Made by a program: the position numbers and the translations under genes | Notes under the pieces: model-generated | What the model saw: only the letters and a program-made list of their open reading frames with translations | Databases searched by the model: none | What the model was told of the DNA's origin: nothing | Shown: positions 38,614 to 52,777 of the stretch, piece after piece | Position numbering within the stretch: position 1 is the stretch's first letter | Layout: each line of letters opens with the position of its first letter | DNA from: Candidatus Marinacidobacterium sp. | GTDB lineage: Bacteria; Acidobacteriota; Vicinamibacteria; Marinacidobacterales; Marinacidobacteraceae | Direction of reading: 5' to 3' | Assembly (NCBI GenBank): GCA_965204755.1 | Contig: OZ242011.1 | Span: forward strand, 2,016,001 to 2,080,000 | Length of the DNA: 64,000 nucleotides

Positions 38614-39879
38614 ATGCCAGCAACCCCGAAAACCCGCAGCGCCGCTGCCGGCGCCGCTCTCGCCCTCGCCTTCCTGACCCTCGGCTGTCCGGCCCCCGAG
38701 CCGACCTCGAACGCCCTCGTCTTCGAAGGCATGCGCATCATCGTCGGCGACGGAAGCGCGCCGATCGAGAACGGCGTCTTCGTCGTCGAAGAGGACCGCT
38801 TCCTCGCCGCCGGCGCCGCCGGCCAGGTCGAAACGCCGCCCGGCGCGCACCGCATAGATCTGACCGGCCGCACGGTGATCCCCGCGCTGCTGGACACCCA
38901 TGTCCACCTCTCCGTCCCGCGCGAGGAACTGATCGACGACCTGCACCGCCGCGCCTACTACGGCGTCGGCGCCGCGCTGAGTCTGGGCCACGACGACGGC
39001 GACGCCGCCCTCGAGGTGAGAGCCGAACCGATCCGCGGCGCGGCGCGCGCGATGACCGCCGGGCGCGGCATCACCCGCCCCGAACCGGGCCGCTCCGAGG
39101 CGCCCTACTGGGTGGACACCGAGGAAGAAGCCCGCGCCGCGGTGCGCGAACTCGCCGAGAAGCAAGTGGACATCGTGAAGATCTGGGTGGACGACCGCGG
39201 CGGCCGATACGAGAAGATGACTCCCGAACTCTACGGAGCGGTCATAGACGAAGCTCACACGCAAGGCCTGCGCGTCACCGCCCACATCTACACGCTGGAA
39301 GACGCCAAGGGACTGCTCCGCGCCGGCGTGGACTCCTTCGCCCACGGCGTGCGCGACATGGAAGTGGACGACGAGTTCGTGGAGTTGGTCCGCGAACGCC
39401 CGGAAGTGGTGCTGGTTCCCAACATGGGAAGCCGCGGCGTCCTCGAGGATCTCGGCTGGCTCTCCGGGACGATCGGGCCGGACGAACTCGCCGAGTTGCA
39501 GGCGGGTTACCAAGATCGCCCGGAAGCCCAGGCGCGCCACGCCATCGAGGCCGCCAACCTCGCGCGGCTCCACGCCGAAGGAATGAAGATCGCCCTCGGC
39601 ACCGACGGCAACGCCGGCTGGCGCCCCCACATAGAAATGGCGGACATGGTGGCCGCCGGCCTGACCCCGCACGAAGTCCTGGTGTCCGCAACCAGCAGCG
39701 CCGCCGAGTTCCTGCGCCTCGACGACATGGGCACGATCGCCGCCGGCAAGAGCGCCGACTTCGTGGTCCTGGAGGGCAACCCCCTCGATGACATCACCAA
39801 CACCCGCCGCATCGAGTCCGTATACCTACGCGGCAAACCGGTGGACCGCGAGGTGATGAGCGCCAACTGGCTCCGGTAG
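38614..39879 (+). CDS. Amidohydrolase family lipoprotein
   Basis: Lipobox TLGC, PALLDTHVH, TAHI, AHG, LGTD, GKSADFVVL..NPL. Confidence 0.9.
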   Translation: MPATPKTRSAAAGAALALAFLTLGCPAPEPTSNALVFEGMRIIVGDGSAPIENGVFVVEEDRFLAAGAAGQVETPPGAHRIDLTGRTVIPALLDTHVHLSVPREELIDDLHRRAYYGVGAALSLGHDDGDAALEVRAEPIRGAARAMTAGRGITRPEPGRSEAPYWVDTEEEARAAVRELAEKQVDIVKIWVDDRGGRYEKMTPELYGAVIDEAHTQGLRVTAHIYTLEDAKGLLRAGVDSFAHGVRDMEVDDEFVELVRERPEVVLVPNMGSRGVLEDLGWLSGTIGPDELAELQAGYQDRPEAQARHAIEAANLARLHAEGMKIALGTDGNAGWRPHIEMADMVAAGLTPHEVLVSATSSAAEFLRLDDMGTIAAGKSADFVVLEGNPLDDITNTRRIESVYLRGKPVDREVMSANWLR

Positions 39880-39939
39880 GCCGACTCCGGCGAACTGGCC
39901 AACGGCTTCAACACAACCACTACGACGAAGGAGAACTTC

Positions 39940-40218
39940 ATGGGACTGCACGATCGCATTCGCGAGCACCTGAAGGAGAACAGGGACTCGCTTCTTCAAC
40001 TTCAAGGCGACGGACGGTTCGCTATCCGCGCCGGGGATGTCGCCGACAGTATGGATCTGCGTAATCGAATGCCGAGCATCTGCAATGTCCTGGCTGGCGA
40101 GAACTACCAAGAACAGGCGGGGCTCACACTCGTTGATCGAGAAGTGCCACCATCAGGGTACGGAAGAACGGCCACCTTCTTCTATGTGCCGCGCGGCTCC
40201 GGTCGCGGCTATCGGTGA
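39940..40218 (+). CDS. Small winged-helix-like protein (module recalled from N-termini of McrB/HNH nucleases)
   Basis: RBS AAGGAG and IRAGDVADSMDLRNRMPSICNVL...PPSG..TATFFY. Confidence 0.7.
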   Translation: MGLHDRIREHLKENRDSLLQLQGDGRFAIRAGDVADSMDLRNRMPSICNVLAGENYQEQAGLTLVDREVPPSGYGRTATFFYVPRGSGRGYR

Positions 40219-40712
40219 CGCCTTCGGCACTGCTGCGGGAAGTCGTGCCGCGGACCGAATCGGCTTCGCTACCTGCAGCGGACCTCTGCCTCGTCTCGTG
40301 CGGTCGCCGGAAGGTTCAGAATGCTGTCCCGGCGAAGGATCTCTACTGCTCCCCTCAGTTTCGCAAGACGCGGGAACTCGTGGAGAGTCAGGGTTGGCCT
40401 TGGTTCATCCTCTCGGCGAAGCACGGGTTGTTGGACCCGGAGCGGATGACCGAGCCCTACGACAAGACACTCAACACCATGAGTGCAGCGGAACGAAGGG
40501 AATGGGCGGAGACCGTCATGGACGCCCTTCACCCGCGCTTGGCCCGGGTGCGCGTGGTCGTCATCTTCGCCGGTGAGGTTTACCGGAAGTACTTGGAGCC
40601 GGAACTGCGTCGCCGAGGCATCGAAATCCAAGTGCCGATGGAAGGACTGCGCCAAGGGGAACAGTTGGCATGGCTGAGTGCGCAGTTGGCCCGACTCAAA
40701 AAACCGAGATGA
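40215..40712 (+). CDS. DUF6884-like protein, copy 1
   Basis: LVSCGRRK..PAKDLY.S..F..WFILSAKHGLL.P....PYDKTL..M..ERREW, AGEVY, PMEGLRQGEQL. Confidence 0.8.
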   Translation: MTPSALLREVVPRTESASLPAADLCLVSCGRRKVQNAVPAKDLYCSPQFRKTRELVESQGWPWFILSAKHGLLDPERMTEPYDKTLNTMSAAERREWAETVMDALHPRLARVRVVVIFAGEVYRKYLEPELRRRGIEIQVPMEGLRQGEQLAWLSAQLARLKKPR

Positions 40713-41464
40713 GATTCGTGCACCGCGCCGACACGGGCCGCTTCTACTCGCTGCTGGCGCAGATCCAGGAGAAAGTCGGCGGGCGTCGTCGCCTCGCCGA
40801 GTGCGACGGCGGAATGGACTGGCCCGAGCGAGGCGTGTACTTCTTCTTCGAGCCCGGAGAGCGCAGGAGAGATTCCGAGGACGGCGACCGCATAGTGCGC
40901 GTCGGCACCCACGCCCTGAAGACCGGAGCGGTGTCAACCCTGTGGAAGCGGCTCGACCAGCACCGCGGTCGCGCCGGCGCCGGCGTAGGAAGCCATCGCT
41001 CCTCCGTCTTCCGCGGCTTGGTGGGTCGGGCCTTGGCTGCTCGCGGTGACTGCGAACTTCCCCCGACTTGGAGATCGGCGAACGAAGACCCGCGAACCAA
41101 GAACGGCATGACCAGCGCGGTGGCCCGCCGGTTCGGCCTGACCCGCGCGGAAGTGTTGGCGAGCGAGGCGGACCTGGAAGGGCGTGTCAGCGACTACATC
41201 GGCCGGATGCCGTTCCTCTGGCTCGGCGTCCCCGACGCCGCGGGGCCGGAGAGCGCGCGCGGCCGCGTCGAGCGCGGCGCTATCGGTCTCCTGAGCCACT
41301 ACTCGACGCCGGCGGAGGACCCGCCCTCCGTGCACTGGCTCGGCCACCACAGCGACCGCGAGCGCATCCGCGAGTCGGGTCTCTGGAACAGCCAGCATGT
41401 GGACAAGCCCTACGACCCGGCGTTCCTCGACGAAATGGAGCGACTCATCGCCGCATGGCTGTAA
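40709..41464 (+). CDS. GIY-YIG-like nuclease, copy 1
   Basis: GVYFFFE...VRVG, RL.QH, SVFR, ERGAI, GLWN. ATGA coupling with the upstream gene. Confidence 0.7.
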   Translation: MRFVHRADTGRFYSLLAQIQEKVGGRRRLAECDGGMDWPERGVYFFFEPGERRRDSEDGDRIVRVGTHALKTGAVSTLWKRLDQHRGRAGAGVGSHRSSVFRGLVGRALAARGDCELPPTWRSANEDPRTKNGMTSAVARRFGLTRAEVLASEADLEGRVSDYIGRMPFLWLGVPDAAGPESARGRVERGAIGLLSHYSTPAEDPPSVHWLGHHSDRERIRESGLWNSQHVDKPYDPAFLDEMERLIAAWL

Positions 41465-42207
41465 AACGCCGGCTCGCCGACACCGCACGCTTCTACGCGC
41501 TGCTGGCTCACATCGAAGAGAAGGTCGGCGGGCGCCGTCGGCTTGCGGAGTGCGATGGTCGAATGCACTGGCCCAGGCGCGGCGTGTACTTCTTCTTCGA
41601 GCCCGGCGAGCGCCGGAGCCTCTCCGGCGAGGGCGACCGCGTGGTGCGCGTCGGTACTCACACCGGATCGAAGACAAAACTCTGGAGTCGGCTCAGCACG
41701 CACCGCGGCCCCACCAAGACCGGCTTGGGCACCCATCGTAACTCTGTCTTTCGCGGTTTGATCGGTCGGGCGCTGGCCTATCGCGGCGACTGCGAACTTC
41801 CGCCTACTTGGAGGCGGGCTAACAACGACCGGCGAACGAAGACCGGAACGATCAACGCGGTCGCGCGCCGATTCGGTATGACCAAAGAGCAAGTAGAGAG
41901 CAGCGAGGAGGACCTGGAGCGGCGGGTGAGCAACTACATCGGCCGAATGCCCCTCCTCTGGCTCAGCGTGCCCGACCCTCCGGGACGCGGCAACGAGCGC
42001 CGCCTCCGCATCGAACGGAATGCCATCGCGCTCCTGAGCGCTTACGCCCTCCGGGCGCTCGACCCGCCGTCCGCCAACTGGCTCGGAAACCACAGCGAAC
42101 ACGAGGACATCCGCGAATCGGGTCTCTGGAACAGCAAACATGTGGACGAGCCCTACGACCCGGCGTTTCTCAACGAGATGGAAGACCTCATCGCCGCTTG
42201 GCCATAA
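41455..42207 (+). CDS. GIY-YIG-like nuclease, copy 2
   Basis: Close paralog of 40709-41464 (RFYALLA.I.EKVGGRRRLAECDG...YDPAFL.EME.LIAAW). Confidence 0.75.
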   Translation: MAVKRRLADTARFYALLAHIEEKVGGRRRLAECDGRMHWPRRGVYFFFEPGERRSLSGEGDRVVRVGTHTGSKTKLWSRLSTHRGPTKTGLGTHRNSVFRGLIGRALAYRGDCELPPTWRRANNDRRTKTGTINAVARRFGMTKEQVESSEEDLERRVSNYIGRMPLLWLSVPDPPGRGNERRLRIERNAIALLSAYALRALDPPSANWLGNHSEHEDIRESGLWNSKHVDEPYDPAFLNEMEDLIAAWP

Positions 42208-42277
42208 GAGCCAAGAGTGTGACATCAGGGCTGTCTCACGTTCACGCGGGAAGGCCGGAGCAACGGAGACGATTGAG

Positions 42278-42751
42278 ATGACGCGGTCCGCGGGGTTGCC
42301 GGAGGATGGGCGATCGAGTGATTGCCGAGTTCTGCCTGCCTACGCTCTCTGTCTTGTATCCTGTGGACGCTGTAAGTTGAACCACGCCGCCCCGGCAAAG
42401 TGTCTCTACCGATCGGAACGTTTCCAGAGGACGCGCCGGTTCGTGGAAGAACGAGGCTGGCCGTGGTTCATTCTCTCCGCAAGACACGGACTGCTGTGCC
42501 CGGATCGAAAGATAGGTTGGTACGATGAGACACTCTGTACTATGCCCGAGGAAGATCGAAAGAAGTGGGCCGAGGGTGTGCTCGGCGATCTTCGACCACG
42601 GCTTGGCGATGTGCGGTCCATCGTTATCTTCGCTGACCCAAAATACTCGGAGCACTTGGCCCCTCGTCTTCTCGATCTCGGCCTTCAGGTCTGTTGCCGG
42701 GAGCGGGATTGGGTCGTGAGGAACTGCAATTCCGACCTGCAGATCGATTGA
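42278..42751 (+). CDS. DUF6884-like protein, copy 2 (diverged, Cys-rich)
   Basis: LCLVSCGRCK..PAKCLY..WPWFILSARHGLL..YDETL, lower GC, divergent C-terminus. Confidence 0.7.
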   Translation: MTRSAGLPEDGRSSDCRVLPAYALCLVSCGRCKLNHAAPAKCLYRSERFQRTRRFVEERGWPWFILSARHGLLCPDRKIGWYDETLCTMPEEDRKKWAEGVLGDLRPRLGDVRSIVIFADPKYSEHLAPRLLDLGLQVCCRERDWVVRNCNSDLQID

Positions 42752-42773
42752 ATCACCCGATTCAGGATGCCCG

Positions 42774-43517
42774 ATGATCCGCGTCGCTGACACGGTGCGC
42801 TTCTACGCGCTGTTGGCGCAGATCGAGGGGAAAGTCGGCGGGCGTCGCTGCCTCGCCGAGTGCGATGGCGGAACGGACTGGCCCGCACGCGGCGTCTACT
42901 TCTTCTTCGAGCCCGGCGAACGCCGGAAACTCTCCGGCAAGGGCGACCGCGTCACGCGCGTCGGCACGCACACCGGCCTGACGACCTCCCTCTGGAATCG
43001 GCTGAGCCAACACTGTGACCCATTCAGCACTGGCCCGGAGTGCCATCGCATCTCCGTCTTCCGCGGCTTGGTCGGTCGGGCGCTGACCTATCGCGGCGAC
43101 TGTGAACTTCCGCGCACTTGGAGATGGGCGAATGACGACCGGCGAACCAAGAGAGGGAGGACGACAGAGGTCGCGCCCCGATTCCGCATGACCACCGAGC
43201 AAGTGGAGGCGAGCGAGGCGGACTTGGAGCGGCGAGTGAGCGACTACATCGGTCGAATGCCGCTCCTCTGGCTCCGCGTGCCGGACGCCGGGAAACGCGG
43301 CAGCATGCGCCGCCGCCGCATCGAACGCCAAGCCATCGCGCTCTTGAGCGGTTACTCCCGCCCGGCGCTCGACCCGCCCTCCGCGCACTGGCTCGGAAAC
43401 CACAGCGACCGCAGGAAGAACCGCGAGTCGGGTCTCTGGAACAGCAAACATGTGGACGAGCCCTACGACCCGACGTTCCTCGACGAGATGGAAGACCTCA
43501 TCGCCGCCTGGCGATAG
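42774..43517 (+). CDS. GIY-YIG-like nuclease, copy 3
   Basis: Third paralog with the same motifs. Confidence 0.75.
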   Translation: MIRVADTVRFYALLAQIEGKVGGRRCLAECDGGTDWPARGVYFFFEPGERRKLSGKGDRVTRVGTHTGLTTSLWNRLSQHCDPFSTGPECHRISVFRGLVGRALTYRGDCELPRTWRWANDDRRTKRGRTTEVAPRFRMTTEQVEASEADLERRVSDYIGRMPLLWLRVPDAGKRGSMRRRRIERQAIALLSGYSRPALDPPSAHWLGNHSDRRKNRESGLWNSKHVDEPYDPTFLDEMEDLIAAWR

Positions 43518-43583
43518 CGCGAAGTCCATTCCCGGTTCCCGCACGAAGGGAACCGAACCGGGCCGGGGGCGCCGTCGCCAGGG

Positions 43584-45989
43584 TCAGAGCGTTCGCAGGA
43601 CGACGGACGGTTCCGGCCGGACCACGCGCTTCGCGGCGAGGAAACACGCCGCGCCCACCACGGCGAGCACGAGAGCGACCGGCGCTGCGTAGAGCAGCGG
43701 CAACCCGGTCTCGACCCAGAGCACGCGGCTGCCCACGAACCGGACCACGACCCAGCCGGCGAAACCTCCGATCCCGACCCCGGCGACCGCGACCGCGGCC
43801 GTCTTCCGCGCGACTTCCCCGACCACCCTCCGGTTCGGCGCGCCGAGCGCCCGGCGGATCGCGACCGCCCGTTCGCTGCGGGCCACGGTCTCCAGCACCT
43901 GGCCCGCCGCGCCGACCGCCGCCAGCAGCAGGCCGGCGGCGGCGAAAACGACCAGCGCGAACGCGCCGAACACCGGACTGCCGAGCGCCCGGATCCGGCG
44001 GTCGCGCACCGCTTCCGTTCGCAGCACGCGAAACGCCGGATCCACTGCGCGCGGCACGCGGGAAAGCGCCGCGAGCCACTCCGTGGACACCGGAGCGTCG
44101 AAACGCGCCACGACTTCGACCTTCCACAGCGGGGCGCGGCTCGAACGCTGCGCGAACGGGACATAGAGCGTGGCCGGCGCTTCGGCGCGACCGAACATCC
44201 GTGCCTCCGGGACGATGCCGACAATGCGGACGGACTCCGAGCCCGAAGGTTCCGGACGACCGAGCGGGTCGGGATGTTCGGACATCGCCGCGGCCCGGCG
44301 ACCGAGCGCGCCCACCGTTTCGGCGCCGGGCCGGTCGGTTTCGACGAAACCCCGACCGCGCAGCACGGGCATTCCGAGCGCCGCGAAGAGTCCGGCGCTG
44401 ACGGCGCGGCGCCGTCCGGAATACATCCCGGCGCCGGGCGGTTGCGGCGGGACGCCCGACGGAAGCCACGCGTCGCCGGACCTCTCGTCCGGGAGGGTGT
44501 CGGCGTATCCGACCGCGGAGACTCCGGCCATTCCCCCGATGCGGTCGGCGAGGCGGTCGAGCGCCTCCACCTGCGCCGCGAACGGAAGCGGACTCCCTCC
44601 GGCCGCTCCGAAGTCCACGGTTACCTGCGCGAGGCCCGCGTCCGAATAGCCGTGGGCGCCGCCGAGCAGCCGTAGCGCGCTTCCCGAAACGACCCCGGCG
44701 GCGATCAGCATCGCGCTCGCGGTCGCGGTCCCGAGAACGAGGAAGACTCCGGCGAGCGGCGTTCGCGGGGTCGAACGCGAGAGGAGGACACCGGGCGCCG
44801 AGCGAACCGCCGCCAGGAACGAGGGTGCCTCCGCCACGAGGGCGGCGCCGGCCGCGAGCAGCGCGCCCCGGACCGCGATCCCCTCGCCCATACCCTCCGC
44901 GAGCGCGTCGCCGGAGCCGCCGGCGTAGTAGCGAACGAGCGGATACAGCCAACGCGCGAGCAGTGAGCCGAGCAGGAAGACGCCCCCGGCGACCGCGACG
45001 ACGCGAAACCACGCGGTCGCGGCCCCGTCCCACCGGCCGGCCCCGACCGAACGCCGTATGGCTTCCGACCGCCGTTCGCGGAGGGCGCGCGCCCCGCGCA
45101 ACCCGACGACGCTCACCGCCGCCGCCAGCAGAAGCAGGAAGGCCCCCACTCGCAGGATTTCCAGGGTCGGCCGGATACCGGCGGTCGCCGCGTCCTCGAG
45201 CGATACGAGGCGAACGGACGGATTCGGGCGTTCGCCGGCGTTCTCGAGCCGCGCGACCGCTTCCTCCCGCGCGGCGGCGAGCGACCGGCCCTCGTTCAGC
45301 CGAGCGACGGTCGGTGACGCGCTCATCGTGAACGACCCGAAAGTCGGTTTCGGTTCCGGCCCGGGCGTCGGTATCCAGCCGTCCCAACTCCCGTCGGGGA
45401 ATCGGAACGAGTCCGGCATCACGCCCACGATGCGAACCGGCGCCCCGTCGAGCGTCGTTTGCGTTCCCACGACTCCGGTATCGCCGCCGAACGCCGTTCG
45501 CCAGAGATCGTGGCTCAGGAGGAGAACCGAGGCGTCCTGCCCTCCCCCCTCGTGCTCTTCGGGCAGGAACCATCGCCCGGCGTAGGGCCGCGCGCCGAGC
45601 ATCTCCAGCAAACCCGGCCCCAGCCGCGCCAGCCGCAGGGTTCGGGCGCTCTCGCCGGAACCGAGGATCGCCCGCGTCCCGGCCCAGCGCTCCATCCCGG
45701 AAAACGCGGCGGACTCGTCGCGCAACAGCAGGATTTCATGTCCGAACGGCGGCGCGAACGCTCCGCTCGCCCCGGCTCCCGCTGCGCCGGCGGCGACTTC
45801 GACGGTTACGAGGCGTTCGGGCGTTTCGTACGGGAGCGGGCGGGCCACGACCTGCTCCCACACGGATTCCACGATCCCGCTCGCCGCCGCGGCCGCGGAC
45901 AGGACGACGAGGAGGGCGGCGGCGTTACCCGGAGACCGCCGGAACGACCTCGCCGCCGCCTTCCACGCGGCGCCCAGCCGTACGAACAT
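43584..45989 (-). CDS. MacB-like duplicated ABC permease (ADOP type), no ATPase partner adjacent
   Basis: RPLPY..PERLV, IVGVMPDSFRFP, two FtsX-type halves (AIRRSVGA, AIRRALGA). Confidence 0.85.
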   Translation of the reverse strand: MFVRLGAAWKAAARSFRRSPGNAAALLVVLSAAAAASGIVESVWEQVVARPLPYETPERLVTVEVAAGAAGAGASGAFAPPFGHEILLLRDESAAFSGMERWAGTRAILGSGESARTLRLARLGPGLLEMLGARPYAGRWFLPEEHEGGGQDASVLLLSHDLWRTAFGGDTGVVGTQTTLDGAPVRIVGVMPDSFRFPDGSWDGWIPTPGPEPKPTFGSFTMSASPTVARLNEGRSLAAAREEAVARLENAGERPNPSVRLVSLEDAATAGIRPTLEILRVGAFLLLLAAAVSVVGLRGARALRERRSEAIRRSVGAGRWDGAATAWFRVVAVAGGVFLLGSLLARWLYPLVRYYAGGSGDALAEGMGEGIAVRGALLAAGAALVAEAPSFLAAVRSAPGVLLSRSTPRTPLAGVFLVLGTATASAMLIAAGVVSGSALRLLGGAHGYSDAGLAQVTVDFGAAGGSPLPFAAQVEALDRLADRIGGMAGVSAVGYADTLPDERSGDAWLPSGVPPQPPGAGMYSGRRRAVSAGLFAALGMPVLRGRGFVETDRPGAETVGALGRRAAAMSEHPDPLGRPEPSGSESVRIVGIVPEARMFGRAEAPATLYVPFAQRSSRAPLWKVEVVARFDAPVSTEWLAALSRVPRAVDPAFRVLRTEAVRDRRIRALGSPVFGAFALVVFAAAGLLLAAVGAAGQVLETVARSERAVAIRRALGAPNRRVVGEVARKTAAVAVAGVGIGGFAGWVVVRFVGSRVLWVETGLPLLYAAPVALVLAVVGAACFLAAKRVVRPEPSVVLRTL

Positions 45990-46032: not shown

Positions 46033-46890
46033 TCAGTCAGGCCGACCCGGCCGGGCGACCTCGCCGGCGGCGTTCCGAACGAGATCCCCGATGGGGCCGG
46101 GCGCCGCCAGGAAGGTCTGACGGACGCGAGGATTCGGAATCGCTTCGAGCGAAGCGCCGTGTTCGAGGAGCAGCGCCACCAACTCCTCGTCTCCCGAGAA
46201 CAGCGCCATCTCGAACGGAGGAATCCCGCGGAACTCGTTCGGGTCGGCGCCGCCCGCCAGCAGGCGCCGCGCGATCGCCAGCCGCTGCGGCGCCCGCGCG
46301 GACGGCGCTCGATTCGCGCTTTCGCCGGCGAACTGGCCGATGTGCCAGGCGCTCATCAACTGATCGAGGGGTTTGCCGAAGTCGGGCGGCGCCGCGTGGT
46401 TCGGGTCGGCGCCGGCGTCCAGCAACACGGTCGCGCTGTCGGCGGCTCCCATGTAGGCGGCCCAGGTCAGCGCCGACCAACCCCGCCCGTCCGGCGAGTC
46501 CACTTCGGCGCCGGCGCGCAGCAGGCGCCGGACCGTCGCCGGGGCATCGTCGGCCGCGGCTTGGTGGAGAGGGCCGTAGCCGTGCGCGTCCCGCGCATTC
46601 GGCCCGACGCCGGCGGCGAGCATCTCTTCCACTCCCTGCGTATCGCCTACCGCCGCCGCGGCGACGAGTTGGCCGGCCGGGCTGTCGTCGTGGCGTCGTC
46701 CGGTGACCAGGTCCGCCAAGCCGTCTTCCGGGCGAGGCTCCTCCGGCCCGCCGGCCGGGCGCGCGTCAGCGGCTTCGGTCGGCGCCGGCGGCGGTTCCTC
46801 CGCCGACCGGAACGACCGGACGCCCGTCCAGACACCCAGCAGGCCGGCGGCGCCGAGCGCCGCGTAGAGGAGTTTGCGGGCGAGGGTCAC
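46033..46890 (-). CDS. Membrane-anchored ankyrin repeat protein
   Basis: N-terminal TM, GYGPLHQAA, GWSALTWAA, LLDAGADPN, LLAGGADPN. Confidence 0.88.
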   Translation of the reverse strand: MTLARKLLYAALGAAGLLGVWTGVRSFRSAEEPPPAPTEAADARPAGGPEEPRPEDGLADLVTGRRHDDSPAGQLVAAAAVGDTQGVEEMLAAGVGPNARDAHGYGPLHQAAADDAPATVRRLLRAGAEVDSPDGRGWSALTWAAYMGAADSATVLLDAGADPNHAAPPDFGKPLDQLMSAWHIGQFAGESANRAPSARAPQRLAIARRLLAGGADPNEFRGIPPFEMALFSGDEELVALLLEHGASLEAIPNPRVRQTFLAAPGPIGDLVRNAAGEVARPGRPD

Positions 46891-46960: not shown

Positions 46961-48295
46961 TCAGCCGGTCAGGTACCGCGCCGTTTCGTCCAGGCGTTCG
47001 CCGGCGGCGTCCAGGATCGGTTCGCTGACCTCCGGGGGGAAGTCGTCGGGCAATCGGGCCCGCGCCCGGTCGAACGCTTCGCCGCGGGTCTCGACCAGTT
47101 CCGTCAGGATTTCGCGGGTCACCGCGGCGGGGATGCCGGCGGCTTCGCCGCTCTCGACGAAGTGGCGCGGCGTGATCTTGCCGACCGCCCGGGTCGGTTC
47201 GGTGGTCCCTACCGTGAACGACATGCCCAAATCGTTCGCGCCGAAGACTTCGCGGTGGATCGTCCACTGGAAGGAAACGATGTCGAAGAACGGCGCGAGT
47301 CGGTACTCCCCGCCGGGGAGGAGCCGCAGGCAGTAGTTCTTCGGATGGCCGTCGATCGCGGCCAGCAACCAGAAGACGACCTGCGCTTTCAGGAAGGTTC
47401 GCCGGTCTTCGTCCGCCGAGACCGAGCCTCGCAGCAGTTCGAACATCCGGGTCAGGTTCGGGCCTCCGTCCCCCTCGTACTTGCAGAACACGGAGTTGCC
47501 GATGGCCTGCAGGAAGTCTTCGTGCGGCGCGCGCAGCAACCGGCCGTCGTCGGTCCATTCGCGGTCGAACCGCTCCACGACGATGGCGCGTTGATCCCCG
47601 AACTCCCCGATCTCCGTCGGGGCGGTGGAAAGCCCGAAGGCCGGGGTGAGCGCCTGGCAGAGGAACTCGTTCTCGACGCTGTCCGGGAAGGTCGTCCCCA
47701 TCAGCCGGCCGATCTGCGGCTTCAGGATGTGGGTCGTCGGCGTGCAGCCGGCGGGGCGGCGCCATTCCCCGTCCACCCGGAGCAGGGCGGTCTTGCGCTG
47801 CGCTCCGGCCAAGGCGAGGGGAAAGTCGCGATCGACGCCCAGCGGCCGCTCTTCGAGGTTGGCCAGGACGCTCTCGACCTCCTCGTCCGGGACGGGCGCC
47901 CCGGAGACCGCGCCTTCCGGCCCGGGATCTTCGCCTTCGGGAACGAAGACGACCGCGCCCGCCGCGCGCCGCCCCAAACACGCGATCAAGGAGAAGGGAT
48001 CCGCCCGCTCGAAACCGAAGCACTCCGCCAGACTCTCGCGGTACGGCATGGACTCCGGCAGGAGGTTGCCCAGGAAGTCGTCCACCCGATACCCGCCGTG
48101 GGGCGCCTCCTGCAGCGGCAGCGAAAGCGAGATCGGCGTCGCCCCCTCCCAGGCGAGGTAGTCGCGGTCGTAGCGGAGCGACAGCCGAGGCACTCCGTGC
48201 TTGTCCCGGCCGCGCGCGATCTTTCCCAGGCGTCTGCCGTGGTGGTAGAGATCGAGCGCCGAGATGCCCGGGTCCTTGCTCAGGGCCTTGCGCAT
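46961..48295 (-). CDS. hipA: HipA-family Ser/Thr kinase toxin
   Basis: Couple_hipA N-domain (PISLSLP, NLLPE), LAGAQRK, THILKP, ENE, VERFDR, DGHPKN, APFFD. Confidence 0.9.
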   Translation of the reverse strand: MRKALSKDPGISALDLYHHGRRLGKIARGRDKHGVPRLSLRYDRDYLAWEGATPISLSLPLQEAPHGGYRVDDFLGNLLPESMPYRESLAECFGFERADPFSLIACLGRRAAGAVVFVPEGEDPGPEGAVSGAPVPDEEVESVLANLEERPLGVDRDFPLALAGAQRKTALLRVDGEWRRPAGCTPTTHILKPQIGRLMGTTFPDSVENEFLCQALTPAFGLSTAPTEIGEFGDQRAIVVERFDREWTDDGRLLRAPHEDFLQAIGNSVFCKYEGDGGPNLTRMFELLRGSVSADEDRRTFLKAQVVFWLLAAIDGHPKNYCLRLLPGGEYRLAPFFDIVSFQWTIHREVFGANDLGMSFTVGTTEPTRAVGKITPRHFVESGEAAGIPAAVTREILTELVETRGEAFDRARARLPDDFPPEVSEPILDAAGERLDETARYLTG

Positions 48296-48322: not shown

Positions 48323-49153
48323 TTACGGCGTCCCGGCGTCGTCCGAAGAGGGCCCCGCGTCGCTGCGGCGAAAGAGTAGCGATTCGGCGGCGGCGCGCGT
48401 CGCGGCGTCCAGCAGCAGGTTCTTGGTTCCCGCGAAACTCAACACCTGCCGATACTCGCGCTCGTCGCCGGCGCCGTCGGCCGCGCCCATCGCGCCGGCC
48501 TCATGTCTTCGCCGCAGGATTCCTTCCGCGAGAGTGATGATGCTCCCGATGGCGGCTTCGACGGCCGGAGCGGCCGGCATCGCCCCGAAGGCGCCGTCCG
48601 CTCCGAGCGGCCGCAAGCCGAACCACGAGAACCGGGTCCAAGTCCCCCGGCGCTCGTCCCGCGTATGCATCGCGAGCCGTTTGCCGAGTTCCCCGGCGCC
48701 GGCGCCGCCCCGGTGCGCCGCAGTCCAGGGCCGGTCCTCGTCGCCGTGCAGCAGGTACGCGCCGCCTTGCCCGGCGAAGTCCACCTGGCCGCGCCGCGCC
48801 GCGTTCATCTTCCTGGCCGTCCCGACGATCCGGGGCGCCGCGCTCCACTCCACCGCGGCCCTCGCCCAGAAGATCCCGAACGAAGTCACGATCGGCGGAA
48901 GCCGGTAGCCGCCCGTCTCGTCGGCCCGCCGCAGCCGGAAGCGGCGTCCCGGCGCCCGGACGAACGGCGACTCCGAACCCTCCGTCCGGAGCGAATGCGT
49001 CAGCGTCTCGGCCACCACGATCTTCGGAGGCCGGGAGCCCCGGCTCGCGAGCCCCCGGCTCACGATCCACTCCGCGATCTCCCGCTCGGTAAGCGGCTTC
49101 CGCGCCTCCCCGAGCGCCCGAACGACCGCGTCCTTCCAAGCCGACGCCGCCAC
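48323..49153 (-). CDS. HARE-HTH + degenerate GIY-YIG protein
   Basis: WKDAVVRAL..KPLTEREI..RGL, SFGIFW, GAYLLH, RL..H, W.RFSWFG. Paralog of 49165-49953, GTG start inferred. Confidence 0.7.
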   Translation of the reverse strand: MAASAWKDAVVRALGEARKPLTEREIAEWIVSRGLASRGSRPPKIVVAETLTHSLRTEGSESPFVRAPGRRFRLRRADETGGYRLPPIVTSFGIFWARAAVEWSAAPRIVGTARKMNAARRGQVDFAGQGGAYLLHGDEDRPWTAAHRGGAGAGELGKRLAMHTRDERRGTWTRFSWFGLRPLGADGAFGAMPAAPAVEAAIGSIITLAEGILRRRHEAGAMGAADGAGDEREYRQVLSFAGTKNLLLDAATRAAAESLLFRRSDAGPSSDDAGTP

Positions 49154-49164
49154 TGGGGGTGAAC

Positions 49165-49953
49165 CTACAGTTGGTCGATGGCTCGTCGAGCCGTTTCCCT
49201 CTTCACTTCGGGATCGGGGACTTGGCGATACTCGAACCCTCGCACCCTTTTCCCTTGCTGACGATTCTGGCGGGGTTCCACCGCTTCGATCAGTATCGCC
49301 TCGACGATCTCGATCAGGAACTCCATGTCGAGTCGACGGGGAAGGCTGCCGACTTTCGGGCCCAGCGTTCCGTCCCTGTGCACGGGCCGAAAACCGAACC
49401 ACGAGAATCGGCCCCACCGTCCCTGCAGGCGATCCCTGGTGTGATCGAAGAGCCGTTTGCCGAGATCGCCGGTTGTGGTGCACCCGACATAGATGACCTC
49501 GCGACCATCGTGAAGCAGGTACACACCGTGTTGTTCCGAGAAGTCCACCTGCTGCGGCTCGGACTTCGAAACGCCGTCGGTTTGAAAGACGCCGAGCAGC
49601 GCCGGGTGAGTCTTCCAGACCACATCCTCTCGGTTCCAGTGCACGCCGTACGAAGTGAGGATCCGTGGGTTTTCTTCCTCCTCGATCGGCGGCTCCGCCT
49701 TCCGTCCGGAAATGTCCGAGCCGGATCGCCGGAGCCGATAAGTGCCGCGCTCGACTCGTTCATACGGTGAATCGGCGCCCTTGTTCTTGATCGAGTCCGC
49801 GAGAACGGCAGCCACCGTAGCGGGTGGAGTGGCGCCGACTCTCTTGCGAAGACCCTGTTCGACGATACGGTTCGCGATCTCCGTGTAGTGCAGCGGGCCG
49901 TCGTTGGCCTGCAGCACCCGATCGATGGCGTCCCGCCACGGCATGTCAGTCAT
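49165..49953 (-). CDS. HARE-HTH (HB1/ASXL/restriction-endonuclease HTH) + GIY-YIG protein
   Basis: PLHYTEIANRIVEQGL...TPPATV..L, GVYLLH..VIYVG, RL.DH, EAILI..EP.QN. Confidence 0.82.
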   Translation of the reverse strand: MTDMPWRDAIDRVLQANDGPLHYTEIANRIVEQGLRKRVGATPPATVAAVLADSIKNKGADSPYERVERGTYRLRRSGSDISGRKAEPPIEEEENPRILTSYGVHWNREDVVWKTHPALLGVFQTDGVSKSEPQQVDFSEQHGVYLLHDGREVIYVGCTTTGDLGKRLFDHTRDRLQGRWGRFSWFGFRPVHRDGTLGPKVGSLPRRLDMEFLIEIVEAILIEAVEPRQNRQQGKRVRGFEYRQVPDPEVKRETARRAIDQL

Positions 49954-50001: not shown

Positions 50002-51948
50002 TCAACCGGCGCGGGCGCGGCGGAGGGGGATTTGGACGAGGATCCAGCCCAGGGCGGCGAAGACCAGGAAGCCCGGGACGCCCGAAGGCATGGCCACGAG
50101 GGACGGCAACTGGTAGTTCAGCACGGCGAAGCCGGACAGGCCCACGCCCATCAGCGCCTCGCCGGCGATCAGGCCCGACGCGATCAGCGTTCCGGCGCTT
50201 TCGCCCAGCGTCCGCCTCTCCGGCGGGAGCGACGCCATCCGGCGGTCGGAGAGCCAGCGGAGGCCGCCGCCGACGAAGATGGCGAAAGTCGTCTGCAACG
50301 GCAGGTACATCCCCACCGCGATCAGCATCGGCGACGGCGCCTGGATCAGGATGAGGAACAGGCACAGCGCGATCCCGAACACCACCAGCGGCCAGCGCAT
50401 CTCGCCGCCCACGATTCCCTGCGAGAGGAGCGCCATCAACCCGGCCTGCGGGGCCGGCAACTCTTCTCCGCCGACGCCGACGCCGCCGGCGGCGATGTCC
50501 CCGCGATGCAGCAGCATCATCGGCAGCACCAGGAACAGCGAAGCGAACGCGACGCCGATGATTTCCGCCCATTCCATGCGGAACGGCGTCCCGCCGAGGA
50601 TCTGCCCGACCTTCAGGTCCTGCAGCATGTCCCCGGCGACGGCGCAGGCGCAGCAGACCACCGCCGCCACGCCGAGCACCGCCGCGACGCCCTCGGTCCC
50701 GGTAACGCCGAGGAAAGTCATCAGCAGCGCCGCGAGCAGCAGCGTCGAGATCGTCAGGCCGGACACCGGGTTCGACGAACTGCCGATGATGCCGACCAGG
50801 TAACCCGCGACCGCGGAGAAGAAGAACCCGGCGATGATCATCACGATCGCCGAGCCGAGCGCGCCGAGCGGTTGGCCGGTGTAGTAGTTGTAGAGGAAGA
50901 AGGTGGGTATGACCAGCGCGGCGACTCCCGCCGCGGTCCAACTGAACGGGATGTCGCGGTCGGACTCTTCGGCGGCGGCCGCGTGCGAACCGCGCAACTC
51001 CGCGACCGAGCGGCGCAACCCCTCCGCGAGCGGTTTGCGCATCCGGAGGAGCGTCCAGACCGCGCCGGCGATCATCGCGCCCACCGCGATCGGCCGCACC
51101 AGTTCCGCCCATACCACGCCGCTCACCGCGCTCCAGTCCGCGCCCGACGCGGCCATCCGGCCGGTATCGGCGAACTCCGGGTTGAAGAAGAGGACCGCCG
51201 GGATCATGAACCACCACGCGAAGACGCCGCCGGAGAAACAGATCGCCGACAGCCGGAACCCGATGATGTATCCCACTCCCAGGTACGCCGGCGACGCCGC
51301 CGGGGTCGAGAACGGGAGGATGCCCGGTTGCGCCGCCGCGCCGAACGAAGTGGAGCCGACCGCGAGCGTTCCCCGGAACGAGCCGTAGCCGAACGCGCCG
51401 GCGATGCGGTCGGTGAACAACTGGATGCCCTTCGAGTTCTTCAGCAGTTCGATGAGCGCGCCCACCCCCATCATCTGGAACAGCAGCCGTCCGCCGCTCG
51501 CGCCCTTGCCGGCGCGGTGGATCTCCGCCGCGGCGACGGACTCCGGGAACGGCAACTCCGGATCGCCCACCATGCTCCGGCGCAGGATCACGACGAACAG
51601 GATCCCGAGCAGCCCGCCCACCAGCATCAGCAGCGTGCTCTCTAGGTAGTGGAACTCCTCCCAGGCGCCGGCCATGAGGAACGCCGGCAGGGTGAAGATC
51701 GCGCCGGCGGCGAGCGCTTCACCCACCGAAGCGGTCGTCCGGGCGATGTTCTCTTCGAGCAGACTGCCGCGGAAGAGGCCGCGGATCACCACCATCGAGA
51801 CGACCGCGGCGGGGAAGGTGGCCGCGACAGTCTGCCCGGCGCGGATGCCGAGGTACGCGTTCGCCGCGCCCAGCACCACCGCCATCAACAGGCCGAGCAG
51901 CAGCGCGCGCGCCGTGAACTCGCGCGCCGGGCCGGAAGAATTCGCCAT
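50002..51948 (-). CDS. OPT family oligopeptide transporter
   Basis: EFTARA, ANAYLG, LPFPE, SSNPVSG, QDLKVG, LPAPQA, ASGLIAGE. Confidence 0.93.
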   Translation of the reverse strand: MANSSGPAREFTARALLLGLLMAVVLGAANAYLGIRAGQTVAATFPAAVVSMVVIRGLFRGSLLEENIARTTASVGEALAAGAIFTLPAFLMAGAWEEFHYLESTLLMLVGGLLGILFVVILRRSMVGDPELPFPESVAAAEIHRAGKGASGGRLLFQMMGVGALIELLKNSKGIQLFTDRIAGAFGYGSFRGTLAVGSTSFGAAAQPGILPFSTPAASPAYLGVGYIIGFRLSAICFSGGVFAWWFMIPAVLFFNPEFADTGRMAASGADWSAVSGVVWAELVRPIAVGAMIAGAVWTLLRMRKPLAEGLRRSVAELRGSHAAAAEESDRDIPFSWTAAGVAALVIPTFFLYNYYTGQPLGALGSAIVMIIAGFFFSAVAGYLVGIIGSSSNPVSGLTISTLLLAALLMTFLGVTGTEGVAAVLGVAAVVCCACAVAGDMLQDLKVGQILGGTPFRMEWAEIIGVAFASLFLVLPMMLLHRGDIAAGGVGVGGEELPAPQAGLMALLSQGIVGGEMRWPLVVFGIALCLFLILIQAPSPMLIAVGMYLPLQTTFAIFVGGGLRWLSDRRMASLPPERRTLGESAGTLIASGLIAGEALMGVGLSGFAVLNYQLPSLVAMPSGVPGFLVFAALGWILVQIPLRRARAG

Positions 51949-52078
51949 GGAAACGCTCCTTCGGGAGGAATCCGGCGCGTTATATCAAGACGGGCGCGGC
52001 GCGGCTTCCGGTCGAGGCGCCGCGCGGCCGGCGGTCGGGCGCCGCGCTCCCGCGGTACGGTTCCGTCCGAATCGCCCC

Positions 52079-52777
52079 ATGTGCGCCCGGTTCATGCAGG
52101 AACTCCAGCGGCAGGCGGTCCGCGACCTGTACCGGGTCGCCGCGGAAGACGACCCGCCGCCGCTCCTGCCCCGCTTCAACGGCGCGCCGACCCAGGACTT
52201 CGCGGTCTGCCGGAACGCGGCCACCGCCGCCGGCGCCGCCCGTAAGCCCCGCCGGGAGATCGCCCGCCTGCGCTGGGGGATGGGCCGGGCGCCCGGCCGC
52301 GGCTCACCGCTCATCAACGCCCGGGCCGAGTCCGTCCACCGCCGGGAGGCCTTCGCCGACGCCTTCCGCAGCCGCCGGTGCCTCGTCCCGGCGAACGGCT
52401 GGTTCGAGTGGATCCGCGCCGGACGGCAGCGCCTCCCCTACTTCATGGCCCCGGAGGACGGCGGCGTCCTCTCGTTCGCCGGCGTTTGGGAGTCGGCGCC
52501 GGGCGCGCCCTCCGAATCCTTCGCCGTCCTCACCACCGCCGCCCTTCCCGAACTGCAACGGATCCACGACCGCCAACCCGCGATCGTGCCCCCCGCCGCG
52601 TTCGCCGACTGGCTCGATCCGGCGACTCCCGAAACCCGCCTGCTGGAAATCGCACGGGAACCGCCGACCGGCCCCTACGAAGTCCGTCCGGTGAGCGTCC
52701 GCGTCAACTCGGTCGCCAACGACGACCCCGACCTCCTGAAACCGCGCCCGGAACTCTTCGCGCCCCCCGCCGGCTGA
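52079..52777 (+). CDS. SOS response-associated peptidase (SRAP/YedK/HMCES)
   Basis: N-terminal MC, INARAE, RRCLVPANGWFEW, IHDRQP, VNSVAND. Confidence 0.92.
   Translation: MCARFMQELQRQAVRDLYRVAAEDDPPPLLPRFNGAPTQDFAVCRNAATAAGAARKPRREIARLRWGMGRAPGRGSPLINARAESVHRREAFADAFRSRRCLVPANGWFEWIRAGRQRLPYFMAPEDGGVLSFAGVWESAPGAPSESFAVLTTAALPELQRIHDRQPAIVPPAAFADWLDPATPETRLLEIAREPPTGPYEVRPVSVRVNSVANDDPDLLKPRPELFAPPAG

What the first reader, a model, noticed from the sequence alone, without database searches (positions are those of the whole stretch)
39940..43517. Tandemly expanded wHTH - DUF6884-like - GIY-YIG-like cluster: candidate new defence system
Seen: six co-oriented genes with lower GC than the flanks. 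The order is small wHTH, DUF6884-like A1, nuclease-like B1, B2, A2, B3, and the first four overlap at their stop/start codons. B paralogs are highly similar except in loops after RVGTH (ALKTGAVST../TGSKTK../TGLTTS.. and GRAGAGVGS/GPTKTGLGT/DPFSTGPEC). Known: GIY-YIG domains act in restriction and repair. As I recall, DUF6884 occurs with such nucleases and near queuine/deazaguanine-modification genes, and this wHTH is seen on McrB/HNH proteins. Inference: a sensor plus a diversified nuclease repertoire, possibly modification-dependent restriction of phage DNA, expanded by duplication with specificity-loop divergence.
Basis: partly seen in the sequence, partly recalled or inferred. Interest (0 to 1): 0.75.

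Follow-up and report, generated by a model that had tools for sequence, protein, structure and literature searches.

The report
Expanded reader-plus-nuclease defence candidate array
Six neighbouring genes encode a small DNA-binding protein, two copies of a DNA base-reading protein and three copies of a DNA-cutting enzyme; this is an enlarged, three-part version of a gene pair already listed, but never tested, as a possible anti-virus system.

Summary
The six genes are real and lie as described. A1 and A2 are DUF6884 proteins. B1, B2 and B3 belong to Pfam GIY_YIG_3. PADLOC already lists this pair as PDC-M57, an untested phage-defence candidate, and this scan has met it in at least 9 other genomes. 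So it is not a new system.

Three things are new here:
- **Third component.** The small first gene is a winged-helix domain with no Pfam family. It sits directly before the DUF6884 domain in 30 of 170 related loci, and is fused with both partners in single proteins. Elsewhere it is fused to HNH, McrB-like AAA_5, HEPN and Schlafen domains.
- **Tandem array.** None of 166 related loci with a B gene holds more than one. Each paralog nevertheless has close orthologs with the same type-specific loops. Several types share at least ten metagenome contig lengths.
- **Variable hotspot.** The array lies between two conserved flank genes. A2 looks degenerate.

The most likely function is modification-dependent, type IV-like restriction. 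This is inferred, not shown. Contigs from two studies reproduce the N-to-B2 stretch exactly, which argues against an assembly artefact.

The parts
39940..40218 (+). N: small winged-helix protein (92 aa), third component of the system
   Evidence: No hit in Pfam, PADLOC, NCBIfam or PHROGs. 230 representative relatives at E<=1e-3. AF2 pLDDT 85.8. VIA hits are mostly winged-helix domains, Z 4.3-5.5. The domain lies directly before the DUF6884 domain in 30 of 170 related loci. It is fused with A and B in P0206, P0276 and P0277.
40215..40712 (+). A1: DUF6884 (YaaA/DpdC-like) protein, PDC-M57A
   Evidence: PF21818 8.9e-48, 162 bits against a cut-off of 30. PDC-M57A 4.9e-39 and DpdC 5.9e-5. The CxxxK (C29..K33) and LSAxxG (L66-G71) motifs are present. 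The GTG start overlaps the stop of N.
40709..41464 (+). B1: GIY_YIG_3 nuclease-like protein with a helical insert, PDC-M57B
   Evidence: PDC-M57B 2.6e-76. PF26468 precomputed for the identical protein P0001. AF2 pLDDT 89.8. GIY-YIG structures at Z 4.3-6.0, and residues about 97-166 resemble HTH / sigma region 4.
41455..42207 (+). B2: second GIY_YIG_3 paralog, with no A gene of its own
   Evidence: PDC-M57B 2e-68. 69% identical to B1 and 74% to B3. Groups with P0010 and P0012 in the tree and shares its loops with them.
42278..42751 (+). A2: divergent DUF6884 paralog, probably degenerate
   Evidence: PF21818 2.1e-29, but only profile positions 2-112 of 135. An 8-residue gap removes the C-terminal motif, which is nearly invariant in the family. 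Longest terminal branch in the A tree, 1.29 against a median of 0.32. GC3 is 0.63.
42774..43517 (+). B3: third GIY_YIG_3 paralog
   Evidence: PDC-M57B 1.5e-60. Groups with P0014 and P0013. Its type reads 'HCD' where the rest of the family reads the nearly invariant 'HRG'.
40698..40703 (+). A6 run at the A1/B1 junction; the -1 frame from here runs straight into B1
   Evidence: Read from the sequence. Close relatives P0316 and P0276 carry A and B in one ORF. Whether slippage occurs here is not tested.

Best explanation
The locus is a tandemly expanded, three-part version of the computationally predicted defence candidate PDC-M57. N is a small winged-helix DNA-binding protein. A is a DUF6884 protein of the YaaA/DpdC type, thought to bind DNA and flip a base into a pocket lined by its CxxxK and LSAxxG motifs. 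B is a GIY-YIG nuclease carrying its own helical, HTH-like insert.

Proposed mechanism (inferred): N and A recognise foreign DNA by an unusual or modified base, possibly a 7-deazaguanine-type base. They then direct or license B to cut it. No methyltransferase is needed, as in type IV restriction.

In this lineage the cassette has grown into an array, N-A1-B1-B2-A2-B3. The three B types are old, separately conserved paralogs that differ in loops next to the catalytic motifs, so they may differ in target preference. A2 appears to be decaying.

Shown here: family membership, folds, gene order, fusions, the array and its recurrence. Inferred: defence role, target and division of labour.
For: Identity:
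- PADLOC PDC-M57A and PDC-M57B hits, PF21818, and PF26468 = GIY_YIG_3.

Functional linkage:
- A lies next to B in 98 of 170 related loci and shares an ORF with it in 9 more.
- N lies directly before A in 30 of the 170 loci.
- Single proteins join all three parts: P0206 and P0276/P0277.

Nuclease:
- Six GIY-YIG structures fall in the top 18 VIA hits.
- Y44, R81, H85, H96 and N227 are invariant and E188 is nearly invariant over 49 sequences, including B1-B3.

Defence flavour:
- Among 40 mostly longer relatives of N that I picked from the 150 listed, Pfam found DUF6884 in 8, HEPN_Swt1 in 4, AAA_5 in 3, HNH_2 in 2, and Schlafen AlbA_2, HD_4 and MIT_C (BrxL C-terminus-like) in 1 each.
- B is patchy among relatives: 10 of 41 genomes including this one. 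This count includes the unpublished genome G033.
- tblastn found no match in 50,697 phage records.
- The cassette sits between amidohydrolase and OPT genes that are 73% and 95% identical to those in L004. L004's own single cassette has a B that matches B1 at only 61% (best tblastn segment).
- No methyltransferase is among the six genes.

Array:
- Each paralog has close orthologs that share its type-specific loops.
- Different paralog types share at least 10 identical 'longest contig' lengths.

DpdC link.
Against: - No experiment exists for PDC-M57. Payne et al. call the 145 PDC systems untested. Full-text searches for PDC-M57, PF26468, GIY_YIG_3 and PF21818 found no functional study.
- 21 of 35 related loci have only housekeeping or unknown genes among their four nearest ORFs, and I had no control set.
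- 43 of 170 loci have B with no detectable A, so B may act alone.
- The DUF6884 member YfjM was reported among proteins that bind abasic and RNA-base lesions, which points to repair.
- Similarity to DpdC is weak: E 5.9e-5 over about 60 residues.
- Structural Z-scores are below the tool's own level for confident fold assignment.
- Close relatives carry N-A-B as a single ORF, so the two frame changes here could be damage.
- A2 has lost a conserved motif.
- dN/dS gives no sign of positive selection.
Confidence: 0.5

Rival explanations
1. A DNA-repair or lesion-processing module. A recognises damaged sites (abasic sites, ribonucleotides or damaged bases) and B nicks beside them, much as the GIY-YIG domain of UvrC does.
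For: The Pfam paper states that YfjM (DUF6884) was found among interactors of abasic and RNA-base lesions, and that an AlphaFold3 model flips a nucleotide into its pocket (passage read). UvrC's GIY-YIG domain is among the structural hits. Most neighbours in 21 of 35 loci are housekeeping or unknown genes.
Against: Distribution is patchy even within one family: 7 of 24 genomes. The cassette lies in a variable hotspot and has diverged far more than its flanks. The N domain is fused to HNH, McrB-like AAA_5, HEPN and Schlafen domains, which are typical of defence proteins. A repair enzyme would not be expected to form a tandem array of diverged paralogs.
Confidence: 0.2
2. The first three genes are a frameshift-broken, decaying copy of a single-ORF N-A-B fusion. 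The array as a whole is eroding rather than working.
For: Close relatives P0276 and P0277 (525 aa) and P0316 (416 aa) carry the parts in one ORF. Here N, A1 and B1 lie in three different frames. A2 has lost the C-terminal motif and has the longest branch. The A gene in L004 has an in-frame stop at the invariant W97. An earlier scan note describes a decaying copy elsewhere.
Against: Each piece starts with GTG or ATG overlapping the previous stop. That is the usual form of translational coupling, which is established knowledge. Separate A and B genes are the commonest arrangement in the family, 98 adjacent against 9 fused. All invariant residues are kept in A1 and B1-B3. B pairs show purifying selection, dN/dS 0.38-0.42. 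The same sequence, with 0 differences, is held by contigs of two studies.
Confidence: 0.15
3. A restriction-modification-like pair. A chemically marks host DNA, as DpdC does within Dpd systems, and B cuts unmarked DNA.
For: DpdC is a DNA-modifying enzyme of an RM-like system (passage read) and is the nearest named relative of A in PADLOC.
Against: DpdC acts on preQ0 already inserted by DpdA/DpdB, and no such genes are in the cassette. There are more nucleases than modifiers (three B, one intact A). B occurs without A in 43 of 170 loci, which would be lethal under this logic.
Confidence: 0.07
4. Selfish GIY-YIG homing-type endonucleases that spread by copying themselves.
For: GIY-YIG fold. Horizontal spread across phyla at 50-63% identity. 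Tandem copies.
Against: There is no intron, intein or phage context, and no match in phage records. The stable partnership with A and N and the conserved paralog types do not fit homing elements.
Confidence: 0.04

Closest known systems
PADLOC phage-defence candidate PDC-M57 (Payne et al., bioRxiv 10.1101/2024.01.29.577857)
   Same: A and B hit its two models strongly and are adjacent and co-oriented. It is a predicted, untested system (passages read).
   Different: PADLOC has models only for A and B (PDC-M57A, PDC-M57B). Here a third winged-helix component is part of the unit. The cassette is also expanded to 2 A + 3 B, which none of the 166 other loci with a B gene shows. I could not see the preprint's supplementary tables that define PDC-M57.
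DpdC of the Dpd 7-deazaguanine DNA-modification/restriction system, and E. coli YaaA (PF03883)
   Same: A shares the region around CxxxK...LSAxxG with DpdC models (E 5.9e-5) and weakly with YaaA (E 0.26). Pfam describes DUF6884 as a distant YaaA relative.
   Different: A is about half the length of the DpdC models (165 aa against about 312 profile positions). It has no DpdA/DpdB partners in the cassette, and its partner is a nuclease.
GIY-YIG restriction and repair nucleases (R.Eco29kI 3mx4, T4 EndoII 2wsh, UvrC N-domain 1ycz, I-TevI 1ln0, 5hmC-specific PD-T4-3 9u75)
   Same: Structural similarity of the core, Z 4.3-5.4. A conserved Y...R..H...H...E...N pattern. That this pattern corresponds to the canonical GIY-YIG catalytic residues is recalled, not computed.
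   Different: No sequence-level match to any PDB chain or to Pfam GIY-YIG models in the local copy. A helical HTH-like insert of about 70 residues splits the core. The second motif reads RVG rather than YIG.
Type IV (modification-dependent) restriction enzymes with N-terminal reader domains, such as McrBC-like systems
   Same: A reader joined to a nuclease with no methyltransferase. The N domain also occurs on McrB-like AAA_5 and HNH proteins.
   Different: There is no GTPase/AAA motor here. Dependence on modified DNA is untested.
Defence DNA glycosylases (Brig1, PMC11078745; Dag1/Dag2, bioRxiv 10.1101/2025.10.29.685425)
   Same: Works-like analogy only: they recognise modified phage bases, including 7-deazaguanines (passages; listing only for Brig1).
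   Different: Different folds. Neither DUF6884, YaaA nor GIY-YIG is mentioned in the Dag preprint's main text.

Membership tests
PADLOC PDC-M57 candidate system | Protein matching the PDC-M57A model | tested here: met
   A1 4.9e-39, A2 1.1e-23
PADLOC PDC-M57 candidate system | Protein matching the PDC-M57B model, adjacent and co-oriented | tested here: met
   B1 2.6e-76, B2 2e-68, B3 1.5e-60. Gene order.
PADLOC PDC-M57 candidate system | Anti-phage activity | not testable with these tools
   Also untested in the source preprint. No later test found.
Pfam DUF6884 (PF21818) | HMM score above the gathering cut-off (30 bits) | tested here: met
   A1 162.3 bits; A2 102.8 bits, but only profile positions 2-112 of 135
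Pfam DUF6884 (PF21818) | CxxxK and LSAxxG motifs (as stated in PMC11701544) | tested here: met
   Both motifs are present in A1 and A2. C29, K33, S67 and G71 are invariant over 47 sequences.
GIY-YIG superfamily / Pfam GIY_YIG_3 (PF26468) | Membership in the Pfam family | tested here: met
   PF26468 is precomputed for P0001, which is identical to B1, and for all 120 listed relatives. The Atlas names it GIY_YIG_3. The model is not in the local Pfam copy, so I did not score it myself.
GIY-YIG superfamily / Pfam GIY_YIG_3 (PF26468) | GIY-YIG fold | tested here: inconclusive
   Six GIY-YIG entries at Z 4.3-6.0. These are below the tool's confidence level. Foldseek found nothing at E<=0.001.
GIY-YIG superfamily / Pfam GIY_YIG_3 (PF26468) | Catalytic Tyr, Arg, Glu and Asn conserved | tested here: inconclusive
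   Y44, R81, H85, H96 and N227 are invariant and E188 is nearly invariant. Their equivalence to canonical residues rests on my reading and recall, not on a residue-level structural alignment.
Type IV modification-dependent restriction | Nuclease plus reader, with no cognate methyltransferase in the operon | tested here: met
   None of the six genes has a methyltransferase domain.
Type IV modification-dependent restriction | Cleavage only of modified DNA | not testable with these tools
   Needs biochemistry or a phage challenge.
Dpd system | DpdA/DpdB partners and a full-length DpdC | tested here: not met
   The cassette holds only N, A and B. A matches about 60 residues of DpdC models of about 312 positions. 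The rest of the genome was not searched for dpd genes.
Winged helix-turn-helix fold (N) | Three-helix core plus beta wing | tested here: met
   The AF2 model has this order of helices and strands. Most of the top VIA hits are winged-helix domains, Z 4.3-5.5. The scores are modest.

The most novel reading that the evidence does not exclude
The array is a repertoire of nucleases with different target preferences, served by a shared winged-helix/DUF6884 reader. It is kept as a unit in a lineage of sponge-associated bacteria and is reshuffled by recombination between cassettes. B1-type nucleases are found joined to two different A types, and the conserved 3' ends could drive unequal crossing-over. 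That would make it a multi-specificity, modification-dependent restriction array, a layout not described for type IV enzymes.
Probability: 0.2. Interest if true: 0.7.

Novelty: new variant of a known kind. Interest (0 to 1): 0.45.

Why it matters
PDC-M57 is widespread: 3,756 relatives of B at E<=0.001, found in Pseudomonadota, Chloroflexota, Acidobacteriota, Nitrospirota and haloarchaeal plasmids. It has never been tested.

This locus adds two things an experimenter would need to know. First, the unit often includes a third, unannotated winged-helix domain. That domain is also attached to many other defence-type effectors, so it is probably a general nucleic-acid sensor worth characterising in its own right. 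Second, one lineage keeps several diverged nuclease types side by side. That offers a natural set of variants for mapping what decides target choice.

If the DpdC-like reader does recognise 7-deazaguanine-type bases, this would be a new class of restriction directed at phages with such modified DNA.

Tried and rejected
- **Complex prediction.** A1 with B1, each with its own alignment, returned no verdict (score 0.00). I do not use it either way.
- **Structure and sequence searches of B1.** Foldseek against PDB found nothing at E<=0.001. A profile search of PDB sequences found only chance-level hits.
- **Family libraries.** NCBIfam gave no hit for any of the six proteins. PHROGs hit only A, in families of unknown function.
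- **Small ORF.** The word-index homology search found one cluster only. The full HMMER search was needed. Foldseek on its model gave E 8.6e-3 at best.
- **Contexts of the closest paralog relatives.** Neither the JGI metagenome scan (best 57% identity) nor the GTDB genome scan (best 63%) returned members of the B1-B3 clade. The tool that fetches contigs by exact protein is closed.
- **Expression.** No RNA holder was listed among the sequencing runs, so nothing can be said.
- **Read-level hints.** Two weak joints were seen. In X9, 41443->42187 skips 743 nt, exactly one B unit, with a short side of 20. In X5, 39878->40278 skips 399 nt, with a short side of 29. Both are too weak to count as copy-number variants.
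- **Regulatory and repeat scans.** No sigma-70-like promoter was found, and the terminator-like hits are all on the minus strand. No flanking direct repeats mark an inserted island.
- **Upstream genes of 31 'B without A' loci.** These are mostly unrelated genes. Three have weak YaaA-like hits.
- **Size-limit error.** exceeded the residue limit and was repeated with fewer proteins.


Full report
**What is there.** The + strand carries six co-oriented ORFs:
- N, 39940-40218 (92 aa)
- A1, 40215-40712 (165 aa)
- B1, 40709-41464 (251 aa)
- B2, 41455-42207 (250 aa)
- A2, 42278-42751 (157 aa)
- B3, 42774-43517 (247 aa)

The junctions N/A1 (GTGA), A1/B1 (ATGA) and B1/B2 (10-nt overlap) overlap stop and start. 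The B2-A2 gap is 70 nt and the A2-B3 gap is 22 nt. GC of the six genes is 0.58-0.69, against 0.70 for the upstream gene and 0.69-0.75 for the flanking windows. The B paralogs are 69-74% identical in protein and 76-81% in DNA. A1 and A2 are 46% identical. The genome is a single 3.98-Mb contig and holds no other copy of N, A or B.

**Identity of A and B.** A1 and A2 match Pfam DUF6884 at 8.9e-48 and 2.1e-29. They match PADLOC PDC-M57A at 4.9e-39 and 1.1e-23. They also hit DpdC models weakly, 5.9e-5 at best. B1, B2 and B3 match PDC-M57B at 2.6e-76, 2e-68 and 1.5e-60.

B has 3,756 relatives at E<=0.001, and all 120 listed carry the precomputed label PF26468. The Atlas names this family GIY_YIG_3. 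The model is missing from the local Pfam copy, which explains the blank.

PDC systems are 145 untested candidates that Payne et al. predicted from genes embedded in known defence systems (passages read; bioRxiv supplements are closed, so I could not see the definition of PDC-M57). Full-text searches for PDC-M57, PF26468, GIY_YIG_3 and PF21818 found no functional study. This scan has met the pair in at least 9 other genomes. The core of the finding is therefore a known, untested candidate, not a new system.

**Fold of B.** An AF2 model built from 49 sequences has mean pLDDT 89.8. Foldseek found nothing. The VIA search of 48,161 chains placed six GIY-YIG structures in the top 18:
- 2lwf, Z 6.0 (that this plant Grx domain has a GIY-YIG fold is recalled, not computed)
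- T4 EndoII 2wsh, Z 5.4
- UvrC 1ycz, Z 5.2
- I-TevI 1ln0, Z 4.4
- R.Eco29kI 3mx4, Z 4.4
- the 5hmC-specific enzyme 9u75, Z 4.3

These Z values are below the tool's own mark for confidence. The agreement among six unrelated entries and the Pfam label point the same way. Residues about 97-166 match sigma region 4 and LuxR-type HTH domains at Z 3.6-4.9, so the nuclease core carries a helical insert that may bind DNA. Y44, R81, H85, H96 and N227 are invariant and E188 is nearly invariant across 49 sequences, including all three paralogs. I read these as the canonical GIY-YIG catalytic set. That reading is from recall.

**A.** The Pfam paper describes DUF6884 as a distant YaaA relative with CxxxK and LSAxxG motifs and a positively charged cleft. 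It notes that the member YfjM was found among interactors of abasic and RNA-base lesions (passages read). Both motifs are present in A1 and A2.

Across 47 sequences the C-terminal residues P141, G144, G148, Q150 and W153 are nearly invariant. A2 has an 8-residue gap that removes this stretch. No other reading frame restores it. A2 also has the longest terminal branch in the A tree, 1.29 against a median of 0.32, and the second-lowest GC3 of the six genes, level with N at 0.63. It is probably degenerate or strongly diverged. A passage in PMC11888242 reports that dpdC genes score as DUF6884. DpdC converts dPreQ0 in DNA to dADG (passage read).

**The small first gene is a real third component.** It has no hit in four libraries. 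None of the 30 nearest Atlas clusters has a common Pfam family. A full HMMER search nevertheless found 230 representative relatives at E<=0.001. The AF2 model has pLDDT 85.8. Its VIA hits are mostly winged-helix domains: GntR, E2F, ScpB, Z-alpha and the DpnI winged helix, at Z 4.3-5.5.

I scanned 40 relatives chosen from the 150 listed, mostly the longer ones. This selection favours fusion proteins. Pfam gave:

| Domain found | Proteins |
|---|---|
| DUF6884 | 8 (one weak) |
| HEPN_Swt1 | 4 |
| AAA_5 | 3 |
| HNH_2 | 2 |
| Protein kinase | 2 |
| Eight other families, including Schlafen AlbA_2, HD_4 and MIT_C | 1 each |
| No family | 13 |

PADLOC labels the MIT_C protein BrxL-like and the AAA_5 proteins restriction-enzyme-like. 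P0206 joins N, A and B in one 516-aa protein whose B part is 50% identical to B1. P0276 and P0277 (525 aa) are triple fusions from close relatives, and they begin almost exactly like the window's N. In 30 of 170 related loci the N domain lies directly before the A domain: 27 in the same open frame and 3 as a separate ORF.

**How typical is the arrangement?** I examined 170 loci from other genomes and metagenomes:

| Arrangement | Loci |
|---|---|
| A adjacent to B | 98 |
| A and B in one ORF | 9 |
| B with no detectable A | 43 |
| A elsewhere in the locus | 7 |
| Too little upstream DNA to tell | 9 |
| No long B match | 4 |

None of the 166 loci with a B gene has a second one. I scanned the upstream ORF of 31 of the 43 'B without A' loci. 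Most hold unrelated genes, and three have weak YaaA-like hits.

**The array is old and recurrent, not an artefact.**
- In a tree of 62 B sequences, B1, B2 and B3 fall in one clade of 21 (support 100/100). Each sits next to close metagenome orthologs: B1 with P0002 and P0003, B2 with P0010 and P0012, B3 with P0014 and P0013.
The B3 type even replaces the family's nearly invariant HRG with HCD.
- Members of different types share identical 'longest contig' lengths: 31371, 184934, 33797, 127357, 1298283, 9668, 151601, 168957, 48062 and 21354. This suggests that the multi-paralog array recurs in at least ten assemblies. Adjacency on those contigs could not be seen.
- Logan contigs of runs from two studies each hold 39800-42147 (flank through B2) in one piece with 0 differences. 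Separate pieces cover 42133-43457 and 43443-43700, also with 0 differences. The B2/A2 and B3/flank joins coincide with unitig ends at repeated 3' ends and are not bridged. One of these runs may be the sample from which the window was assembled.
- Pairwise dN/dS is 0.38-0.42. In 30-codon windows over residues 61-100 it reaches about 1 for B1-B2 only. Purifying selection is clear. Positive selection is not shown.

**Modular exchange.** The A part of P0316 is 82% identical to A1, and that of P0276 is 65% identical. Both carry a B1-type nuclease: P0276 sits in the same 90% cluster as P0003, and P0316 in that of P0002. A2 is closer to the A part of P0276 (58%) than to A1 (46%). So A and B types have been recombined within this clade.

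**Split versus fused.** Relatives carry N-A-B or A-B in one ORF. Here the three parts lie in three frames, with overlapping stop and start. The A1/B1 junction holds an A6 run (40698-40703), and the -1 frame from that run reads straight into B1. This may be a simple indel that split the gene, with translational coupling keeping expression. A slippage site is possible but untested.

**Context.** Upstream is an amidohydrolase gene. Downstream lie, in order, a MacB/FtsX permease, an ankyrin protein, HipA, two tandem HARE-HTH proteins with a GIY-YIG-like C-terminus, and an OPT transporter.

In L004 (record titled Candidatus Marinacidobacterium sp.) the amidohydrolase and OPT genes are 73% and 95% identical to the window's. 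They enclose only one N-A-B cassette, one unknown ORF and one HARE-HTH gene. L004's A gene has an in-frame stop at W97, and its B matches B1 at 61% (best tblastn segment). The site is therefore a variable hotspot whose cargo turns over far faster than its flanks.

B is patchy among relatives: 10 of 41 genomes including this one, and 7 of 24 in the same family (the tally includes the unpublished genome G033). It has no match in 50,697 phage records. It matches 10 plasmid records, mostly haloarchaeal, and 16 IMG/VR contigs.

I scanned the two nearest ORFs on each side of the cassette in 35 related loci, 138 ORFs in all. These were the first 35 of the 61 loci with full flanks. Of the 35 loci, 14 have a toxin-antitoxin, restriction-modification, candidate-defence or mobile-element gene among those ORFs, and 21 do not. 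Fourteen ORFs in 11 loci hit PADLOC at E<=1e-10, and about four of those hits look like generic domains. I had no control set, so enrichment is open.

**Mechanism.** The best-supported reading is a modification-dependent, type IV-like restriction unit:
- N and A read DNA. A is the nearest relative of an enzyme that acts on 7-deazaguanine bases in DNA, and N is shared with McrB-like, HNH, HEPN and Schlafen effectors.
- B cuts.
- No methyltransferase is present.

The steps from 'binds DNA' to 'recognises modified phage DNA' and 'licenses B' are inference. The main rival is a lesion-repair pair, suggested by the YfjM report. The patchy distribution, the hotspot location, the partners of N and the paralog array all argue against it. 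A further rival is that the split N/A1/B1 genes are decaying. A2 very probably is.

**Verdict.** This is a new variant of a known, untested candidate (PDC-M57). Its points of interest are the third winged-helix component and the conserved array of diverged nucleases.

Noticed in passing
window 48323-49483 (-) and 49165-49953 (-): Two tandem paralogs in a lower-GC stretch. Each has an N-terminal HARE-HTH domain (PF05066, 1.2e-6 and 2.2e-14) and a C-terminal part that reads like a canonical GIY-YIG motif ('GVYLLHDGREVIYVG...LGKRL..H'). Neither hits PADLOC. L004 has a single copy (8227-9015). So a second nuclease family is also duplicated in this hotspot.
   Followed up: partly
window 38614-39879 to 50002-51948; L004 3757-11227: The stretch between the amidohydrolase and OPT transporter genes is a variable hotspot. 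It holds about 10 kb of cargo here and about 4 kb in L004, while the flank proteins are 73% and 95% identical.
   Followed up: yes
window 46961-48295 (-): A HipA-family kinase toxin gene (HipA_C 1.1e-39, Couple_hipA 7.8e-19) lies in the same hotspot. I did not look for a partner antitoxin.
   Followed up: no
window 46033-46890 (-): An ankyrin-repeat protein that also hits PADLOC PDC-M72A (6.7e-17). This is probably a generic repeat match.
   Followed up: no
window 40698-40703: An A6 run lies just before the A1 stop and B1 start. A -1 shift here would give an A1-B1 fusion like those encoded in relatives (P0316, P0276). In run X5 the base at 40700 reads G, which breaks the run.
   Followed up: partly
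L004 5435-5974: The DUF6884 gene of the related cassette has an in-frame stop where the family has the invariant W97. It is probably a pseudogene.
   Followed up: partly
L031 3624-4814; L037 6879-7958; L108 2132-3253; L152 5196-5924; L163 2220-2918: Longer proteins with weak YaaA (PF03883) hits lie next to the cassette in two loci, or directly upstream of B where DUF6884 is missing in three loci. They may be an alternative reader partner.
   Followed up: no
P0122 (637 aa), P0123 (366 aa): Relatives of N occur as tandem repeats within one protein: four copies followed by DUF6884 in P0122, and three in P0123.
   Followed up: no
L014 2046-5933: In one 'B without A' locus the gene directly upstream of B is a DUF488 protein. 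Next to it are an AlkB-like 2OG-Fe(II) oxygenase and a type II/IIG methyltransferase.
   Followed up: no
window 51674-52777 (+): An SRAP (SOS response-associated peptidase) gene, 5.1e-52, lies just beyond the OPT gene.
   Followed up: no
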